A model generated the notes under the pieces. It was given only the letters and a program-made list of their open reading frames with translations, did no database searches and was not told where the DNA came from. 64,000 nt of DNA from an uncultured Actinomycetes bacterium (GTDB lineage Bacteria > Actinomycetota > Acidimicrobiia > IMCC26256 > PALSA-610). This document shows positions 53,857 through 60,712 of this stretch, in pieces (positions within the stretch are counted from its first letter, which is position 1; every line of letters begins with the position of its first letter). The position numbers and the translations under genes are program-made. The DNA lies in contig CAVSNP010000003.1 of NCBI GenBank assembly GCA_963729375.1, positions 25,525-89,524 of the forward strand, written 5' to 3'.

Positions 53857-55502
53857 TGTTTTATCGGTTTGGTTTCGCGGGCTACTCGTCGGGGTCGTCG
53901 TCAGTCTCGCGGCCGGTGGCACATTCGCGTGGCCGACGATTGCGGGTGCGACGAGTTGCGAGCCAGGTCCCCGAGCGGTCCTTGTTGGCTGCAACTTCAG
54001 CGGCGCGAATCTCAGCGGCGCGAATCTCAGCGGCGCCAACCTCACCGGCGCCAAACTCGTTAAGGCGAACCTCAGAGGCGCGAACCTCACCAAGGCGAAC
54101 CTCACGAGGGCGAACCTCACCGGCGCCGATCTCATTTCTTCCGTCCTCCTCGATGCCAACTTGACGAACGCCGTCCTCACAAGCGCGATCCTCACCAGCG
54201 CATACCTCTACGGCGCGAATCTGACCAGCGCTCGTCTCGGCCTCGTCAACCTCAGTCACCTCAACCTCAGACACGCCGACTTTTCCCACGCCGACCTGCG
54301 CCTTGCGAATGTCACGGAGAGCAATCTCAACTACGCCACGCTCACTGGTGCGAACCTCACCGGCGCCAACCTCACTGGGAGCAACCTCACCGCTACCAAC
54401 CTCAGCGGGACGAACCTCACCGGCGCCAACCTGACCGACGTGGCGGAGGTTGCTCCCGGTGCGGGTTCGATCGTCGGCGCTCCAGCCGCGCTGCCATCGC
54501 ACTGGTCGCTCATTGACGGCTACCTCATCGGCCCCGGCGCCGACCTCACGGGTGCCGACTTCAACACTGACAACCTAAGCCGTGCAGACCTGACCGACGT
54601 GATGTCGGGTGGGATCCTCGGCACTCCGGCCGCGCTGCCGCCGAGCTGGTCGCTCATTGACGGCTACTTCGCCGGCCCGGGCGCCAACCTGTATGGCGCG
54701 AATCTGAACGGCGCATATCTTGCGAACGTCAACCTCAGCGGCGCCGACCTGAGAGGGGGGGCCAACCTCACTGGAGCCACGCTGGCGGGTGCCAACCTCA
54801 CCGCTACCAACCTCGCCAACGTCAACCTCACTGACGCGAACCTCAGCGGAGCAACGCTTGCCGACGCGAACCTCGATCCTTTTGCCAACCTCACTGGAGC
54901 CACGCTGGCGGGTGCCAACCTCACCGCTACCAACCTCACCGGAGCGACGCTCACCGACACGAACCTCAGCCTTGCGAACCTCACTGAGGCGAACCTGACC
55001 GACGTGACGTCGGGTGGGGATCGTCGGCACTCCGGCCGCGCTGCCGCCGAGCTGGTCGCTCATCGACGGCTACCTCGAAGGCCCCGACGTCAACCTGTCC
55101 GACGCGAATCTGCAAGGCGCCTATCTCGCCAACGTCAACCTCACCGGCGCCCAACTTTTCAATGCCAACCTCGTTAGCGTCAACCTCACTGGTGCCATCC
55201 TCGTCGGCGCAGACGTCTCCTATGCGAACCTCTCAAACGCGAACCTCACGGACGCGAACCTCACGGACGCCGCCTTCAGTCAGGCCACATGGTCCGACAC
55301 AACTTGCCCCGACGGAACCAACAGCAACCTCGACGGCGGCACTTGCGTGAACAACCGTGCTGAGGGCGCCAGCGATGTCGACGCGGTCAGGGTCGAACGT
55401 CGTGCGCGGTCGCCACGCGCCCTCCACCAGGTCTTGGAAGGCAGGCCGCGGCCAGGCCGCGAGAGGCCGCGAAATGGCGGGTACCCAGGTGACGCGACGT
55501 GA
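53857..55502 (+). CDS. exported pentapeptide-repeat protein with three interspersed 'PAALPxxWSLIDGY' modules, two frame disruptions (~53880, ~55015); 3' end uncertain
   Basis: MFYRFGFAG / LLVGVVVSLAAGGTFAWPTIAGA signal-like N-terminus. Long runs of A(N/D)L(T/S)x pentapeptides. Modules at ~54473, ~54607 and ~55020. Cys-rich end TTCPDGTNSNLDGGTC. Confidence 0.75.
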
Positions 55503-55631: not shown

Positions 55632-56566
55632 GAACGGGGAGAGACGGTACTCGCGCCGACCTGCGTGTCTGCGCTCGTGACGTTCAGTGTTCGCGGAGGA
55701 CACAGATCATGGCAACAACGAACAGACGCGCGCGATGGGCGTTTTCAGGAGGAGTCGGGGAGGGGGGATTTGAACCCGCGTGGGCCGGTATTAGCGGGTG
55801 ACGGCGCATGCTGCCACATGACGTTTTCGCTCGTCAGCATACGTGTGTGGTGATGAGTGGTCCCGCCCGATGCCGACGGGTGACGGAATTTCTGCGACCA
55901 ATCCGTGACCACCGTCCCGCCAAGCGGCTCGTGCTCGACGATCGAGTCGTAGACGTTGCCGGCGGGGTCGAGAGGGCCGGTTTCGAACTGGCGCTCGATA
56001 ACCGCGACGGCGCGCTGACGATCGTTGGCGGCCTGGATATGGTTCAGAGCTTGTTTTGCTTCGTGCCCTTGGACGTTGTCGTTGAGCGCGTCGAGTGATC
56101 CCACGATCAGCGCCACGCTCCGCGCGACACAGGACAGCAGCGAACGTCAGGGCCCTCATGACAACGCGCTCTGCGCATCGACTGCGCCGGAGACATGCGG
56201 ACTTCAGATTCGCGAGGAAAGGTCGAAGCACCGAATCAGCGCGCAAACCGCTTCGATTTACCCACTTCGTCTGCGGCCACCCCAGGACGAAGTCGTTCAG
56301 CCACACCCGGCGCAATGTCGCGGCAGCGAGGAATCCAAGACGACGTCATGCAGCACCCACATTCCTGCGATCAACATGAGGGCGCCGGAAGGCCTTTGAG
56401 GCGATGACGAGATATGGTTGCAGACCCCGGCGCGACCGAAAGCACTGCGACCGACACCCCAGCAACCGGAGCGGACCATTCGAGTCGGCGCGGGGCGATC
56501 GTCGACGAGCGACCGGTCGCGACAGGACGGATTCGCTCTATCACGAGATGCTGCCGGGGGAGTCGA

Positions 56567-57361
56567 ATGCTGTCGACCCCGAGTGTTGCGATTCTCGTCT
56601 GCGGTCTGGTTGCAATCGCCGCAATTGTCGCTGGAGCCGTCGTCATGTCGAATCGCAATGGCGGACGGACGAGATCCGCGTCAACGCCTGTCGTCGCCCG
56701 CGCGAGCCTGCAACCTGCAAAGGCGTTGAGGACAGCGCCTGCAACGTTCGCGCCACTGTTCGCCGCGGACAGCTCCGGGGTGGTGCGGGTCGAATCGACG
56801 GGATGTTCATCTGCCGACGTCGGAACCGGCTTTCTCGTCGCGCCCAACCTGATCGCAACGGCCGCTCACGTCGTCGAAGGAACTGCCGATATCACGCTGC
56901 ACGGTGCGAAGTACGAAAGCGTCGGGGAGGTCGTCGGTATTGACGCGGTGTCGGACGTCGCGTTGGTGCGCAGCCAGACGGGCTTGACGGGCCATGTCTT
57001 CTCGCTCGCTCAGCGTTCGCCTGATGTCGGTACGCCCGTCGCGACCATCGGGTTCCCAGAAGCGTTGGCCGATCACACTGACCCAGGGCACCGTCAGCGC
57101 AGTCAACAGGTCGGGAAGGTTCAACGACGGCATCACACGCCATGGCCTCATTCAGACGGACACTCCCGTGAACCCCGGCAACAGCGGCGGTCCGCTACTC
57201 AAGGCTGACGGGACCGTCGTCGGCGTGGTTGAAGGCGACCTCACCCCGCGAACGGCATCGGCTACGCCACTGGTGTCGACGTTGCGCGTCCGCTTCTCCA
57301 GGGCTGGCAGCACTCGCCTCAGGTCGTCCCGATGGCGCGCTGTGGGAAGCCCAAACGATAG
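56567..57361 (+). CDS. membrane-anchored trypsin-like (S1/HtrA-type) serine protease, two frame disruptions (~57065, ~57245)
   Basis: [40 protein letters not shown] (His), DVALV (Asp), [15 protein letters not shown] (Ser). Confidence 0.7.
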
Positions 57362-57506
57362 AAACTCGCCCTTCACGACCTCCCCGATTCGACGTTGACA
57401 TCCCAAGCGGCAACCATTCGGCGCATCGGCCGGCCACGTGGGCAGCATGCAGCGGCCGCACGCGTATGAGTACCTCTTGAGATGTCGTCACGCAAAGGAG
57501 CCCAGC

Positions 57507-58479: not shown

Positions 58480-59877
58480 TCACGGAGCTAGAGCCCCAAC
58501 ACCGTTGGAGGCATTGCTAGAGAGCGGGTTGTATCCCCAACGGTCGACTTGTTCACACTCGGCCTCGGTGAACGATGCGCGTTTGCGCAGTTCTACCTCG
58601 GTACGTGATTGGAAGCTCATCCCATCCGGGTCCGGCCCCTCGAGGATCTCTATCTCACGACGCGCTCGTTCCGTGTCCGCCTCGAGGTAGTGCGCTCGCA
58701 GATCGCGTTGACGCCCGAAGAAGCGGCCGTGTACCCGTTCGCGTTCGACCATTGGATCGAGATGGAGTTTCTCGCACAGCTGGCGCGTCCAACGAAGCCC
58801 GTTCTCGACGTGGAACAGCTCATCAGTCGAGGCGTAGTCCAGCGCACGTGCAATGTCGACCTGGCCGAGGATATCCCGAGTTGCGATCTCGAGGGGCAGC
58901 TTGTCGATGGCGAGGCCCTCGAGCACCGTGCACAGGATGAGGAGCCGCCAGACAAGTTCGCGTTCGCTTCCCACCTCGCATTCGGGGAACTCGTATGCGA
59001 ACTGGTAGTTCGAACCATGCTGAGGAAGGCACGCTTCGTCAATGCCGCGGTCACTCATCAGACGACGAAAGAACTCTGCATGGCGCGCCTCGTCGGTCAC
59101 ATGCCGGGCGACGCCTGCGTGGAACGACCATGGCAGTGTCGGGTGCTCATAGGAGCACCGGGACATGAGCTCCATGGCGCAAAGCTCGGACATGACGTTT
59201 TCGTTCAGCTCGCCGGCGATCTCGTCGTCGTCCAGTCGAGAACCCATCCTCAAGTTCGAGCGTGCGCCTGTCTCCGGCCGTACCCTCCCAGCTGGTCGCG
59301 CCGGCACAGGTACGCGGTCCTGTGGCTCCCACATCACTTCGTCGAGCGACACGACCTCGGTGTCGGAATCGGCCAGCGCCCTGTGGACCTCGGCGACGAG
59401 CGTGCCGGACGTCGCGGGTCCCAACCGTTCCAACTCGCCGATCGCCGATCGCACCACCGCCATCAAACGCGCGTCGTAGAGGGGATCGATCCGGGCGGCG
59501 ATCTCCCGATAACGAGCAAGCAGGACCGACGGGACGTCCTGGCAGAGTCCTTGGACTACGGGAGCGGAGTCGTGGCTCGCGTCGAGCAGCCGGAGTGGTG
59601 CCACCCACACTGGCTTGACAGTCAGAGCCGAGTCGTCACGCTCGAGAAGTGCGAGGGCGTAACCACGCACGGCGCTTGCTCGTGCCATCGTGGCATCGAG
59701 GCGGGAAGCCAGCCGGAGCTTGTCGTCGAGCTCGGGGGTCTTCGCGACCCACCCAGCGCTGACATGGGCCACAGCTCGCTCGAGGGCGGCGAGCCGGAGC
59801 AGGTCGTCCACGAGCTCAGGTGCGGACCACCGCCCACCCGGACGCTGGTCGCGATCGGGATAGGTCGTCGTGCTCAC
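58480..59877 (-). CDS. DUF455-type ferritin-like di-iron protein with an extra N-terminal helical half
   Basis: Two ExxH motifs, DEARHAEFF and DELFHVENGLRW. LEGLAIDKLPLEIA resembles the DUF455 (MiaE-like) core. The GTG start overlaps the upstream stop (TAGTG); an alternative TTG start is at 59910. Intact. Confidence 0.75.
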   Translation of the reverse strand: MSTTTYPDRDQRPGGRWSAPELVDDLLRLAALERAVAHVSAGWVAKTPELDDKLRLASRLDATMARASAVRGYALALLERDDSALTVKPVWVAPLRLLDASHDSAPVVQGLCQDVPSVLLARYREIAARIDPLYDARLMAVVRSAIGELERLGPATSGTLVAEVHRALADSDTEVVSLDEVMWEPQDRVPVPARPAGRVRPETGARSNLRMGSRLDDDEIAGELNENVMSELCAMELMSRCSYEHPTLPWSFHAGVARHVTDEARHAEFFRRLMSDRGIDEACLPQHGSNYQFAYEFPECEVGSERELVWRLLILCTVLEGLAIDKLPLEIATRDILGQVDIARALDYASTDELFHVENGLRWTRQLCEKLHLDPMVERERVHGRFFGRQRDLRAHYLEADTERARREIEILEGPDPDGMSFQSRTEVELRKRASFTEAECEQVDRWGYNPLSSNASNGVGALAP

Positions 59878-60221
59878 TACGCGACAACAGACTTGTTCCA
59901 GGGACAACACCCGGCACCGGACGCGAAACCAGGACCCGCAAGCGCTGTGGTGGGAAGACCACTGGCTTGGTTCAGCGCCGCCCCGAGGCCCGAAGCGACG
60001 GCGGGCGAGAGGAGCGGGCCGCTCCCGAGAGCGCCCATGACGCCCCCGGAACCGAGCGCAAAGCCGGCAACATCTGTCGTAGCGTCCTCGACCAGCAGCC
60101 TCTTTTCCTCATCGGTCAGGTCCCAAGTGTCGAGTGTGCCGGGGTCCTGGGCGACCTTGTCGCGGAACTCTTCGTTGTTCAACATGTTGGTGTACACGCC
60201 CGCGAGTGCATCTTTGCTCAT
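59877..60221 (-). CDS. 114-aa leader-like + Gly/Ala/Ser-rich core protein ending ...GAGCCPWNKSVVA (candidate RiPP-type precursor)
   Basis: ATG 60221 with GGAGAAGGAG 6 nt upstream. N-terminus MSKDALAGVYTNMLNNEEFRDKVAQDPGTLDTWDLTDEEKRLLVEDATTDVAG, then GFALGSGGVMGALGSGPLLSPAVASGLGAAL...GPGFASGAGCCPW. Confidence 0.6.
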   Translation of the reverse strand: MSKDALAGVYTNMLNNEEFRDKVAQDPGTLDTWDLTDEEKRLLVEDATTDVAGFALGSGGVMGALGSGPLLSPAVASGLGAALNQASGLPTTALAGPGFASGAGCCPWNKSVVA

Positions 60222-60712
60222 GACAAGCTCCTTCTCCGATGTCTCGTGCTGACTCGACCACGGCGCCGTCAAGCGCCCGCGCCTCCCGTGTCGCCCGTCT
60301 AGGTCGCCGATGTTTTCTCCGAAACTCGCGCAGTGTGGTGTCACGCGAGCTCGTGACCGCGGCGAACATACTGCGTGAACAGCAATTTTTCGATTGTGGG
60401 CTCGATGCCGCCTTCTTCAAGCACCCTTTGGTGTGGGCGACGACATCAAGGCCGAGGTCCCCGCATTCCCACATCTTCCTGCCCCCACCGGCTCGTCGCC
60501 AAGGCATCCGCGTCACGACGACGCTAGAACAAGGCGCCAGCTCTTCGAACCGGGGATTTCCCTAGTTTCCGGCATGCCCAGGCCGATGTTTTGCCTCTTT
60601 TGCCGTATGTCGAACCAAAGAGCCGCATCGCGATCCGTCACTCGCCGCCCTGCAATACCGGTTCTTCGGAAATGAACGGGGTGGAAGTCCTCAGGAGGCG
60701 AAACTGGCCAGC

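What the first reader, a model, noticed from the sequence alone, without database searches (positions are those of the whole stretch)
58480..60221. Leader-like/Gly-rich small ORF translationally coupled to a DUF455 di-iron protein: candidate uncharacterised peptide-modification pair
A 114-aa ORF has a strong RBS and an amphipathic N-terminal ~50 aa (NEEFRDKVAQDPGTLDTWDLTDEEKRLL...VAG). This resembles the 'FRxxLxxDPxxxL...LTDEEL..VAGG' logic of Nif11/NHLP/lanthipeptide-type leaders. It is followed by a low-complexity Gly/Ala/Ser/Leu core ending in GAGCCPWNKSVVA. Its stop codon overlaps (TAGTG) the start of a 465-aa protein with two ExxH di-iron motifs and a DUF455-like core, preceded by a second helical half. 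The pair stands alone between unrelated genes and both ORFs are intact in a window where many genes are frame-disrupted. As far as I know, DUF455/MiaE-like ferritin-fold oxidases are not an established RiPP tailoring class. A Cys-Cys-containing substrate for a di-iron oxidase would therefore be new chemistry. This is inference from architecture only.
Basis: partly seen in the sequence, partly recalled or inferred. Interest (0 to 1): 0.7.

Follow-up and report, generated by a model that had tools for sequence, protein, structure and literature searches.

The report
Small CCxW protein with dedicated di-iron enzyme
A small protein carrying an invariant Cys-Cys-x-Trp motif on a floppy tail always sits directly in front of an unusual two-domain di-iron (DUF455) enzyme, which most likely makes this an undescribed peptide-modification system built on an enzyme family not known to do that job.

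Summary
A 114-aa ORF (59877-60221) has a strong RBS, and its TAG overlaps the GTG of a 465-aa protein (58480-59877) that passes Pfam DUF455 and keeps all six di-iron ligands.

Both genes are conserved, mainly in Acidimicrobiia metagenome-assembled genomes (MAGs). In 44 of 46 scored loci (33 distinct sequences) a homologous small ORF with CCxW lies directly upstream of this long enzyme form. One of the two exceptions is a scoring artefact. No ordinary short DUF455 locus (0 of 45) has one.

The small protein has a helical N-domain that repeatedly gives sub-threshold hits to the nitrile-hydratase-leader (NHLP) clan family Os1348, a class of ribosomal-peptide (RiPP) leaders. Its CCPW tail is predicted disordered. 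One divergent clade adds a Sec-type signal peptide to the small protein only.

The enzyme's extra N-half is homologous to a stand-alone protein found beside DUF455 pairs in PqqD-containing clusters. Those clusters encode short precursors ending in an invariant WW.

Best reading (about 0.6): a precursor/maturase pair in which the di-iron oxidase modifies the Cys-Cys-x-Trp site. The chemistry is unknown and nothing has been tested experimentally. The main rival is that the small protein is an accessory subunit.

The parts
60228..60237 (-). Ribosome-binding site GGAGAAGGAG, 6 nt upstream of the ATG of the small ORF
   Evidence: Read directly from the sequence
59877..60221 (-). Small ORF, 114 aa: the candidate precursor or substrate protein of the CCxW family
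   Evidence: 50 homologues. Alignments A1/A4 have invariant L14, L30, L35, E39, G68, L79, G80, N84, G88-L89-P90 and C105-C106-P107-W108. dN/dS is about 0.13-0.24.
60072..60221 (-). Helical N-terminal domain (aa 1-50), a distant NHLP-clan / LigA-like leader-type domain
   Evidence: AF2 helices 3-15, 17-25, 27-32 and 37-48, pLDDT 79-86. Pfam LigA E=0.14. 13 of 46 family members hit NF038399 below threshold, best E 0.0016. The family profile reaches bona fide Os17/Frankia_peptide proteins.
59898..59909 (-). Invariant Cys-Cys-Pro-Trp motif (aa 105-108) on the predicted disordered C-terminal tail; the proposed modification site
   Evidence: C, C and W are invariant across all clades (A7). Among 33 distinct locus sequences: CCPW 28, CCSW 3, CCKW 1, CCGW 1. 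pLDDT is below 50 for residues 93-114.
59875..59879 (-). TAGTG stop/start overlap joining the two ORFs
   Evidence: Read from the sequence. 26 of 33 related loci have ATGA or GTGA at the same junction.
58480..59877 (-). Enzyme ORF, 465 aa: N-extended DUF455 ferritin-like di-iron protein
   Evidence: PF04305 at 51.5 bits. 109 homologues. AF2 model has pLDDT 94.6 and pTM 0.92 and is all-helical. The best PDB fold matches are ferritin/Dps/bacterioferritin at only E about 0.06.
59356..59823 (-). N-terminal helical half (about residues 20-175), outside the Pfam DUF455 model; a partner-type domain and candidate substrate-recognition module
   Evidence: No similarity to the C-half (hhalign). Homologous to stand-alone proteins encoded next to DUF455 genes in PqqD clusters (hhalign Prob 93-96%, E 3e-7 to 3e-9, residues ~29-157).
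58747..59313 (-). DUF455 four-helix-bundle core (residues 190-378). Di-iron ligands: E232 (59185-59187), E264 (59089-59091), H267 (59080-59082), E321 (58918-58920), E354 (58819-58821), H357 (58810-58812)
   Evidence: Five of the six (E232, H267, E321, E354, H357) are invariant in 98 sequences, where E264 is nearly invariant (A3). All six are invariant in the 14-sequence alignment that includes clades down to 31% identity (A6). They lie on AF2 helices 218-244, 251-277, 306-337 and 341-371.

Best explanation
This is a two-gene, translationally coupled cassette for post-translational modification of a ribosomally made small protein.

The 114-aa product has a folded helical N-terminal domain of the NHLP/LigA-like leader superfamily. 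This domain presents a disordered C-terminal tail that carries the invariant Cys-Cys-x-Trp motif. The downstream 465-aa protein fuses two modules. One is a partner-type helical domain, inferred to dock the small protein. The other is a DUF455 ferritin-like four-helix bundle with a complete E/ExxH/E/ExxH di-iron site.

I infer that the di-iron centre uses O2 to oxidise the CCxW site. Because no reductase or ferredoxin is conserved with the pair, an oxidase-type reaction that takes its electrons from the substrate is more likely than a reductant-dependent hydroxylation. Examples would be Cys oxidation or rearrangement, or a Cys-Trp cross-link.

The product may remain a modified small protein rather than a cleaved peptide. 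In the window no protease or exporter accompanies the pair.

Shown: gene reality, conservation, strict adjacency, ligand conservation, domain homologies and genomic contexts. Inferred: the enzyme-substrate relationship, the site of modification and the chemistry.
For: - Strict co-occurrence specific to the N-extended subfamily. 44 of 46 loci have a CCxW ORF directly upstream. Of the two exceptions, L019 is a coordinate artefact and does carry the ORF, and L093 is a 24%-identity member of a different cluster type. Ordinary DUF455 loci score 0 of 45.
- The pairing survives divergence to 29-44% (small protein) and 31-43% (enzyme) identity, in otherwise unrelated neighbourhoods.
- C, C and W are the only invariant tail residues across all clades, and they sit in a segment AF2 predicts as disordered.
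- The N-domain consistently gives sub-threshold hits to NF038399 (13 of 46 and 4 of 4). Member P0177 also hits PF14407. Os1348/PosA is a characterised NHLP-type RiPP precursor with a folded leader and no dedicated protease (PMC12636437). ECOD groups LigA, NHase-alpha, Frankia_peptide and Nif11 together as a leader-type fold (PMC12353581).
- In clade L044-L049 the small protein, but not the enzyme, has a Sec-type signal peptide. It shows a positive n-region, a 15-aa hydropathy mean of 1.7-2.5, and AxA. This fits transient enzyme-substrate contact and argues against a permanent complex.
- Independent context: 11 loci encode PqqD (an RRE), a 43-57-aa precursor with a conserved leader and an invariant C-terminal WW (7 of 11 ending in Cys), a stand-alone homologue of this enzyme's N-half, and two DUF455 paralogues. 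DUF455 plus this partner domain therefore occurs in classical RiPP-type clusters.
- Accessory genes typical of RiPP clusters occur in subsets. An S8 peptidase (with GAF) lies directly upstream in 6 loci, and 4 of these (L020, L023/L024, L025, L027) also have an FHA/cNMP ABC transporter in the same block. PhyH dioxygenase lies directly downstream in 6 loci. A LanKC/LanL-like synthetase is present in one locus.
- All six di-iron ligands are invariant.
Against: - No experiment and no complex model exist.
- The small protein is single-copy and conserved along its whole length at about the same rate as the enzyme. That is also what a subunit would show.
- Two members of the same fold superfamily, LigA and nitrile hydratase alpha, are enzyme subunits rather than substrates.
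- All NHLP-clan hits fall below the curated cut-offs, and the window protein itself gives none.
- No RRE, protease or exporter is conserved across all loci, and none is near the pair in the window.
- The S8/ABC block could be lineage synteny. S8 is 65% identical between loci whose pairs are only about 30% identical.
- No biochemical function is known for any DUF455 protein, as far as the held literature shows.
Confidence: 0.6

Rival explanations
1. The small protein is a permanent accessory subunit of the DUF455 enzyme, which acts on an unknown small-molecule substrate. It could be a LigA-like lid, or a swinging-arm carrier whose vicinal Cys-Cys tail delivers electrons or metal to the di-iron site.
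For: - 1:1 adjacency with translational coupling.
- Whole-length conservation and single copy.
- Weak LigA hits. LigA is the alpha subunit of a dioxygenase, which I state from established knowledge.
- C-terminal vicinal Cys pairs act as mobile redox or metal arms in mercuric reductase and some thioredoxin reductases (from my own knowledge, not tested here).
- Most loci lack a protease or exporter.
Against: - The signal peptide is on the small protein only in clade L044-L049, which would separate it from a cytoplasmic enzyme.
- The related DUF455-plus-partner-domain sets sit in PqqD/precursor clusters.
- The invariant Trp next to the Cys pair is not explained by a thiol arm.
- The enzyme already carries its own partner-type domain.
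Confidence: 0.24
2. The small ORF is an unmodified Gly-rich bacteriocin-like peptide, or one modified by something else (for example a lanthipeptide). The DUF455 protein would then serve immunity, regulation or an unrelated role.
For: - The Gly/Ala-rich hydrophobic middle region.
- One locus has a LanKC/LanL-like synthetase directly upstream (L031).
- Relative P0189 has a VAGG site followed by a lantibiotic-like core.
Against: - The LanKC link is a single occurrence, and the close relative L034 lacks it.
- The Gly-rich stretch is missing in clade L044-L049 while CCPW is kept.
- No double-glycine site, C39 transporter or immunity-type membrane protein is conserved.
- An intact di-iron site that is invariant over all clades points to catalysis.
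Confidence: 0.05
3. The adjacency or the small ORF is a chance feature of GC-rich DNA, not a functional gene pair.
For: Long spurious ORFs are common here. For example, a 547-aa antisense ORF spans 58609-60252 on the plus strand.
Against: - 50 homologues, with dN/dS about 0.13-0.24.
- A conserved RBS and start.
- Adjacency in 33 distinct sequences across unrelated contexts.
Confidence: 0.01

Closest known systems
MNIO (DUF692) systems: methanobactin MbnA/MbnBC, bufferins, TglA/TglHI
   Same: - A non-haem multi-iron, O2-dependent enzyme is paired with a partner domain or protein and a dedicated ribosomal substrate whose conserved Cys residues are the target.
- Minimal cassettes occur without a protease.
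- Bufferin precursors carry Sec signal peptides and are modified before export (PMC11626156, PMC12452194, PMC9060507), as I infer for clade L044-L049.
   Different: - The enzyme fold is a ferritin-like four-helix bundle (PF04305), not the DUF692 TIM barrel.
- The partner is a fused all-helical domain unrelated to MbnC, TglI or DUF2063.
- The substrate motif is CCxW with an invariant Trp.
- No chemistry is known.
Os1348/PosA-PosC and other NHLP-clan RiPP precursors (NF038399, PF14407 Frankia_peptide, TIGR03793 NHLP, TIGR03798 Nif11)
   Same: - A long, folded helical N-terminal 'leader' domain is followed by a short C-terminal modification site.
- The full-length precursor persists and no dedicated protease is encoded (PMC12636437).
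- These are the only families the small protein family hits.
   Different: - All scores are below the curated cut-offs.
- The partner enzymes differ: HEXXH/alpha-KG enzymes, YcaO, rSAM or LanM in the known systems, DUF455 here.
- There is no GG cleavage site and no PCAT transporter.
Ferritin-like di-iron oxygenases/oxidases (AurF, CmlI, MiaE, PaaA, aldehyde-deformylating oxygenase)
   Same: A four-helix bundle with E, ExxH, E, ExxH ligands. Weak AurF and rubrerythrin hits appear, and the fold matches are ferritin-type.
   Different: - Those enzymes act on small molecules, tRNA or acyl carriers, and most need an external reductant system.
- None is known to modify a ribosomal peptide.
- There is no sequence match to any solved structure.
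Cysteine tryptophylquinone (CTQ) and tryptathionine-type Cys-Trp cross-links
   Same: A Cys and a nearby Trp in a small protein or peptide are the chemically plausible partners. This is the only known kind of PTM that would use both of the invariant residue types.
   Different: - The known makers are flavoproteins or radical-SAM enzymes (QhpG/QhpD, LodB), which I state from my own knowledge.
- Nothing here shows that a cross-link forms. This is an analogy only.
PqqD/HprK-related-kinase/nucleotidyltransferase peptide-maturation cassettes (SynChlorMet- and GeoRSP-type; lasso-like accessory sets)
   Same: The WW-precursor clusters found here (for example L072) share PqqD, an HprK-related kinase-like protein, NTP_transf_5 and an Asn-synthase-like gene.
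   Different: - Those cassettes use radical SAM/SPASM maturases. Here two DUF455 proteins plus the partner-domain protein take that place.
- The window pair has none of these accessory genes.

Membership tests
Pfam PF04305 (DUF455, ferritin-like clan) | HMM score above the gathering threshold | tested here: met
   51.5 bits against 34.3, residues 190-378. The precomputed PF04305 annotation is present on nearly all 109 homologues.
Pfam PF04305 (DUF455, ferritin-like clan) | Four-helix bundle carrying the di-iron ligand set E / ExxH / E / ExxH | tested here: met
   E232, H267, E321, E354 and H357 are invariant in 98 sequences, with E264 nearly invariant. All six are invariant in the 14-sequence set that includes the divergent clades. 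They lie on four long AF2 helices. Fold matches are to ferritin/Dps/Bfr. Metal content itself was not tested.
NHLP (TIGR03793) / Nif11 (TIGR03798) leader-peptide precursors | HMM score above the curated cut-off | tested here: not met
   The window ORF gives no hit at E<=1. None of the 46 family members hits either model; only NF038399 appears.
NHLP (TIGR03793) / Nif11 (TIGR03798) leader-peptide precursors | Double-glycine-type cleavage site together with a C39-peptidase ABC transporter | tested here: not met
   The conserved motif is V-x-G-F, with x = A/S/E/T/Q. No C39 transporter was found in any neighbourhood.
Os1348 family, NHLP clan (NF038399) / PF14407 Frankia_peptide | HMM score above the curated cut-off (40 bits / 48 bits) | tested here: not met
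   Best scores are 15.9-25.4 bits. However, NF038399 is the top family for 13 of 46 members, for 4 of 4 signal-peptide-clade members and for P0177. This indicates a superfamily-level relationship, not membership.
Os1348 family, NHLP clan (NF038399) / PF14407 Frankia_peptide | Partner HEXXH/alpha-KG enzyme (PosC-type) or ATP-grasp enzyme | tested here: not met
   The partner here is DUF455. No such enzyme is conserved in the neighbourhoods.
RiPP system (general definition) | Ribosomal precursor gene genomically coupled to a modifying-enzyme gene | tested here: met
   Adjacency in 44 of 46 loci, against 0 of 45 for ordinary DUF455.
RiPP system (general definition) | Recognition element (leader/follower or RRE) distinct from the modified core | tested here: inconclusive
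   A leader-type N-domain and an enzyme partner domain are both present, but no binding was modelled or measured.
RiPP system (general definition) | A demonstrated post-translational modification of the precursor | not testable with these tools
   Requires co-expression and mass spectrometry.
MNIO/bufferin-type systems | DUF692 (MNIO) enzyme with a DUF2063/MbnC-type partner | tested here: not met
   No such Pfam hit on the enzyme or its neighbours.
MNIO/bufferin-type systems | Sec signal peptide on the precursor | tested here: not met
   Absent from the window protein and its clade. Present only in the divergent clade L044-L049.
Class III/IV lanthipeptide cluster | LanKC/LanL synthetase adjacent to the precursor | tested here: not met
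   Found only in L031 (and its partial duplicates L032 and L033). Absent from the window, from L034 and from all other loci.

The most novel reading that the evidence does not exclude
DUF455 together with its helical partner domain (fused here, separate elsewhere) would be an unrecognised, widespread class of O2-dependent di-iron peptide maturases, a ferritin-fold counterpart of the MNIOs. It would target Trp-containing C-terminal motifs: CCxW in NHLP-clan small proteins, and WW(+Cys) in PqqD-dependent short precursors. In the CCxW family it would build a new Cys/Trp-derived structure, for example a Cys-Trp cross-link or a quinone-like or metal-binding group. In some lineages the modified small protein would be exported.
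Probability: 0.4. Interest if true: 0.85.

Novelty: new variant of a known kind. Interest (0 to 1): 0.72.

Why it matters
DUF455 is a large ferritin-like family, and the held literature reports no biochemical function for it. If this reading holds, the family gains a function and RiPP biology gains a new maturase superfamily. Iron-dependent peptide oxidation currently rests on radical SAM, alpha-KG, P450, MNIO and HDO enzymes.

The strict pairing gives a minimal system that can be tested directly: two genes, about 1.75 kb, and no accessory factors in most loci.

The invariant Cys-Cys-x-Trp site, and the WW site of the sister clusters, point to chemistry on Trp and Cys that no known enzyme class performs on peptides in this way. 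The signal-peptide clade suggests an extracytoplasmic role for the product, possibly metal binding or redox, by analogy with bufferins. That role is speculation.

Tried and rejected
- Sequence search of solved structures found nothing for the enzyme. For the small protein it gave only weak eIF2-alpha and gallate-dioxygenase helix matches.
- Foldseek of the small-protein model gave no match with E<1.
- Foldseek of the enzyme model gave only generic ferritin/Dps matches at E about 0.06.
- I tested whether the enzyme is an internal duplication of two ferritin halves. This is rejected at the sequence level (hhalign Prob 0.2).
- The GNAT gene next to the pair in the window is not conserved in any other locus. 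SCO1/SenC appears in one locus only.
- The SecA-PrfB-[pair]-FtsE-FtsX arrangement is lineage synteny.
- The LanKC link is a single occurrence.
- P0172, a 782-aa protein with 14 'core' repeats, is a low-complexity false hit.
- The promoter/terminator scan and the Rfam search of the region found nothing.
- Clustering the neighbours of the canonical DUF455 loci with stop-to-stop ORFs was swamped by shadow frames and told me nothing.
- Literature searches for DUF455 or ferritin-like terms combined with RiPP, leader peptide, PqqD or tryptophan found nothing relevant.
Full report
**1. Observation**

The feature is on the minus strand. The small ORF runs from the ATG at 60221 to the TAG at 59879-59877 and encodes 114 aa. 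GGAGAAGGAG lies 6 nt before the start codon.

The enzyme ORF starts at the GTG at 59877-59875, so the junction reads TAGTG. It ends at 58480 and encodes 465 aa. My residue numbers use the 466-aa translation of 58480-59880 and are therefore one higher than the true protein.

Pfam places residues 190-378 in PF04305 (DUF455) at 51.5 bits against a cut-off of 34.3. Only marginal rubrerythrin and AurF hits accompany it, and NCBIfam has nothing for either protein.

The long plus-strand ORF at 58609-60252 is a GC-rich shadow of these genes.

**2. Both genes are real and conserved**

The word-indexed search found 50 relatives of the small protein and 109 of the enzyme. Nearly all come from metagenomes or Acidimicrobiia/Acidimicrobiales MAGs, and many share the same contig.

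The small protein is conserved along its whole length, with a mean column identity of 55-59%. Invariant residues are L14, L30, L35, E39, G68, L79-G80, N84, G88-L89-P90 and C105-C106-P107-W108.

Against six relatives, pN is 0.18-0.22 and pS is 0.57-0.66. This gives dN/dS of about 0.13-0.24 in both the N- and C-terminal halves, although synonymous sites are near saturation.

**3. Adjacency**

In one-genome-per-species contigs, all 20 loci with upstream DNA have the small ORF directly upstream of the enzyme. This includes an enzyme only 36% identical.

After a metagenome scan I split all loci by whether the match covers the enzyme's N-half.
- Among N-extended enzymes with at least 400 nt of upstream DNA, 44 of 46 have a same-strand ORF containing CCxW that ends at the enzyme's start.
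- Of the two exceptions, L019 is an artefact of my coordinate projection and does carry the ORF.
- The other exception, L093, belongs to a different cluster type (section 7).
- Among ordinary short DUF455 loci, 0 of 45 have such an ORF.

There are 33 distinct small-protein sequences in these loci: CCPW 28, CCSW 3, CCKW 1 and CCGW 1. ATGA or GTGA sits at the stop/start junction in 26 of them.

In two long-read contigs it is frameshifted.

**4. The small protein**

AlphaFold2 on a 46-sequence alignment gives the following:
- helices 3-48, with pLDDT about 80-86;
- two weaker helices at 60-66 and 73-86;
- a disordered tail at 93-114 (pLDDT below 50) that contains CCPW.

An exhaustive profile search of 1.84 billion representative proteins found only 36 hits. 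Distant full-length members keep CCxW, for example P0171 CCKW and P0173, P0175 and P0177 CCSW. Weaker hits share only the N-domain.

Those N-domain-only relatives belong to the NHLP clan:
- P0185 scores 114 bits on NF038399 (Os1348 family) and 57.9 bits on PF14407.
- P0187 scores 39.2 bits on NF038399.
- P0189 combines such a leader with a VAGG site and a lantibiotic-like core.

When each of the 46 family members is scanned alone, NF038399 is the top family for 13 of them, with a best E-value of 0.0016. Every hit is below the 40-bit cut-off.

Os1348/PosA is a characterised NHLP-type RiPP precursor with a folded leader and no dedicated protease (PMC12636437). [quoted passage not shown]

Membership of TIGR03793 or TIGR03798 is not met.

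**5. A clade with a signal peptide**

The enzymes in L044-L049 are 31-36% identical to the window enzyme and match it full-length. They are preceded by a 209-258-aa protein with this layout:
- a positively charged N-terminus;
- a hydrophobic stretch at residues 12-27 (15-aa Kyte-Doolittle mean 1.7-2.5);
- an AxA|A site;
- the same NHLP-type domain;
- a helix;
- CCPW[NS]K.

All four of these proteins that I scanned hit NF038399, with E-values from 8.6e-5 to 0.01. The enzymes in this clade start directly at the conserved domain and have no signal peptide.

This clade lacks the Gly-rich stretch, so that stretch is not a defining feature. Across all clades only M1, one Glu, one Gly and C, C, W are invariant. 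No neighbouring gene is conserved in this clade.

**6. The enzyme**

The AlphaFold2 model is confident (pLDDT 94.6, pTM 0.92) and all-helical. No solved structure matches it by sequence. By fold, only generic ferritin, Dps and bacterioferritin bundles match, at E about 0.06.

E232, H267, E321, E354 and H357 are invariant in 98 sequences, and E264 is nearly so. All six are invariant in the 14-sequence alignment that includes the divergent clades. They sit on four long helices.

The N-half (about residues 20-175) is outside the Pfam model and is not a duplicate of the C-half.

**7. An independent context for DUF455**

Eleven 'ordinary' DUF455 loci share one gene order: L072, L091, L093, L099, L102, L105, L106, L107, L110, L112 and L114. 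The order is:
- PqqD (PF05402, 54 bits);
- a 43-57-aa precursor with the leader motif P.YE.P...VM.E.E.L..FQ.T and an invariant C-terminal WW, 7 of 11 ending in Cys;
- an HprK-related kinase-like protein, present in most loci;
- a roughly 185-aa protein;
- two DUF455 paralogues (97.6 and 84.7 bits);
- a signal-peptidase-like protein.

L072 also carries NTP_transf_5 and an Asn-synthase-like gene.

The roughly 185-aa protein aligns with residues ~29-157 of the window enzyme, with hhalign probability 93-96% and E-values of 3e-7 to 3e-9. The window enzyme is therefore a fusion of a partner-type module and a DUF455 catalytic module. The same two modules occur as separate proteins in clusters with a classical RiPP recognition element. 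Trp is the one residue common to the two kinds of precursor termini.

About 25 further ordinary loci have a DUF455 gene followed by a gene for this partner module, without PqqD. I did not resolve what these are.

**8. Accessory genes**

Only the pair itself is universal. Some accessory genes occur in subsets of loci:
- An S8 peptidase plus a GAF protein lie directly upstream in six loci: L006, L020, L023/L024, L025 and L027. Four of these (L020, L023/L024, L025, L027) also have an FHA/cNMP-domain ABC transporter in the same upstream block, and a Ser/Thr kinase gene precedes it in L023/L024 and L025.
- A PhyH dioxygenase lies directly downstream in six loci.
- A LanKC/LanL-like synthetase lies upstream in one locus but is absent from its relative L034.
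- A radical SAM gene lies downstream in L027.

The S8 block may be lineage synteny. S8 is 65% identical between loci whose pairs are only about 30% identical.

In the window the pair stands alone, between a divergent GNAT gene and a convergent Lys/Arg-rich ORF.

**9. Interpretation**

The best-supported reading is a precursor/maturase pair. The NHLP-type domain and the enzyme's partner module would provide recognition, and the disordered CCxW tail would reach the di-iron site and be oxidised with O2.

No reductase is conserved with the pair. I therefore favour an oxidase-type reaction that draws its electrons from the substrate, such as Cys oxidation or rearrangement, or Cys-Trp cross-linking. 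This is inference by analogy with MNIO chemistry on Cys (PMC9060507, PMC11626156).

The product may stay a modified small protein. This is reported for Os1348 (PMC12636437), and bufferins are also exported after modification (PMC11626156, PMC12452194).

The main rival is an accessory-subunit role, at about 0.24. It fits the 1:1 coupling and the whole-length conservation. It is weakened by the signal-peptide clade and by the PqqD clusters.

**10. Novelty**

I found no paper in the held library (PMC open-access and bioRxiv to mid-2026) that connects DUF455 or a ferritin-like di-iron enzyme with a ribosomal peptide. Subscription-only literature could not be searched.

I classify the finding as a new variant of a known kind: RiPP-type logic with a new maturase fold, a new partner module and a new substrate motif. 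Nothing about the chemistry has been demonstrated.

Noticed in passing
L072:1689-10509 (also L091, L093, L099, L102, L105, L106, L107, L110, L112, L114): A RiPP-type cluster with this gene order: PqqD, a 43-57-aa precursor with a conserved leader and an invariant C-terminal WW (7 of 11 ending in Cys), an HprK-related kinase-like protein, a stand-alone homologue of the window enzyme's N-half, two DUF455 paralogues and a signal-peptidase-like protein. L072 adds NTP_transf_5 and an Asn-synthase-like gene. I found no description of it in the held literature.
   Followed up: partly
L061:5524-7361 and about 25 other loci (L050, L053, L062, L063, L065, L066, L068, L070, L071, L073, L077, L078, L080-L084, L086, L089, L092, L100 and others): Ordinary short DUF455 genes are followed by a gene for the same partner-type module (phmmer E about 1e-13 to 1e-19), without PqqD or a recognisable precursor. 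DUF455 may generally work as a two-module enzyme.
   Followed up: partly
window 56414-57398 (+): A trypsin-like peptidase gene is split over two frames. 56414-57208 matches Trypsin_2 positions 1-109 and 56994-57398 matches positions 88-144. Several related long-read MAG contigs also show frameshifted copies of the pair (L017-L020, L023, L025). The 'frame-disrupted genes' of this window are therefore probably assembly indels, not pseudogenes.
   Followed up: partly
window 59877-59897 (-): The window's small protein has only 6 residues after CCPW (NKSVVA). Relatives in its clade have 12-13 and usually end in E, encoded by GA[AG] overlapping ATGA/GTGA. Here a TAG sits where relatives have GAG/GAA, and about five codons are missing. 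The tail after the motif seems dispensable.
   Followed up: partly
L031:375-5199: A class III/IV lanthipeptide-synthetase-like gene (RamC_N, Pkinase, LANC_like; 923 aa) lies directly upstream of a CCSW small protein and its DUF455 enzyme. This is a single occurrence, seen on three related contigs.
   Followed up: partly
L027:3007-7900; L023, L024, L025, L006, L020: A block of FHA/cNMP-binding ABC transporter, GAF protein and S8 peptidase, often with a Ser/Thr kinase, lies directly upstream of the pair in six loci. S8 is 65% identical between loci whose pairs are only about 30% identical. This means either a conserved insertion site or functional coupling with fast-evolving cassettes.
   Followed up: partly
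P0189 (protein): A 123-aa protein has the same N-domain, then an ELEQVAGG site and a Ser-rich core that hits lantibiotic, class II bacteriocin and NHLP leader models. It shows that this N-domain type is used as a true cleavable leader elsewhere.
   Followed up: no
window 58609-60252 (+): A 547-aa ORF lies antisense to both genes. It has no support and is a GC-rich shadow ORF.
   Followed up: yes
window 54161-55177 (+): A pentapeptide-repeat protein (PF00805, E 8e-50) lies a few kb from the pair. No link to the pair is apparent.
   Followed up: no
L007, L011, L012, L013, L016, L019, L022 (record titles): Some loci come from MAGs labelled Rhizomicrobium, Rhizobium, 'beta proteobacterium' or Mycobacterium. 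Their small proteins form distinct subclades (for example ...CCPWGHPKIPDPLGMIE). The cassette may therefore occur outside Acidimicrobiia, or the bins may be contaminated.
   Followed up: no
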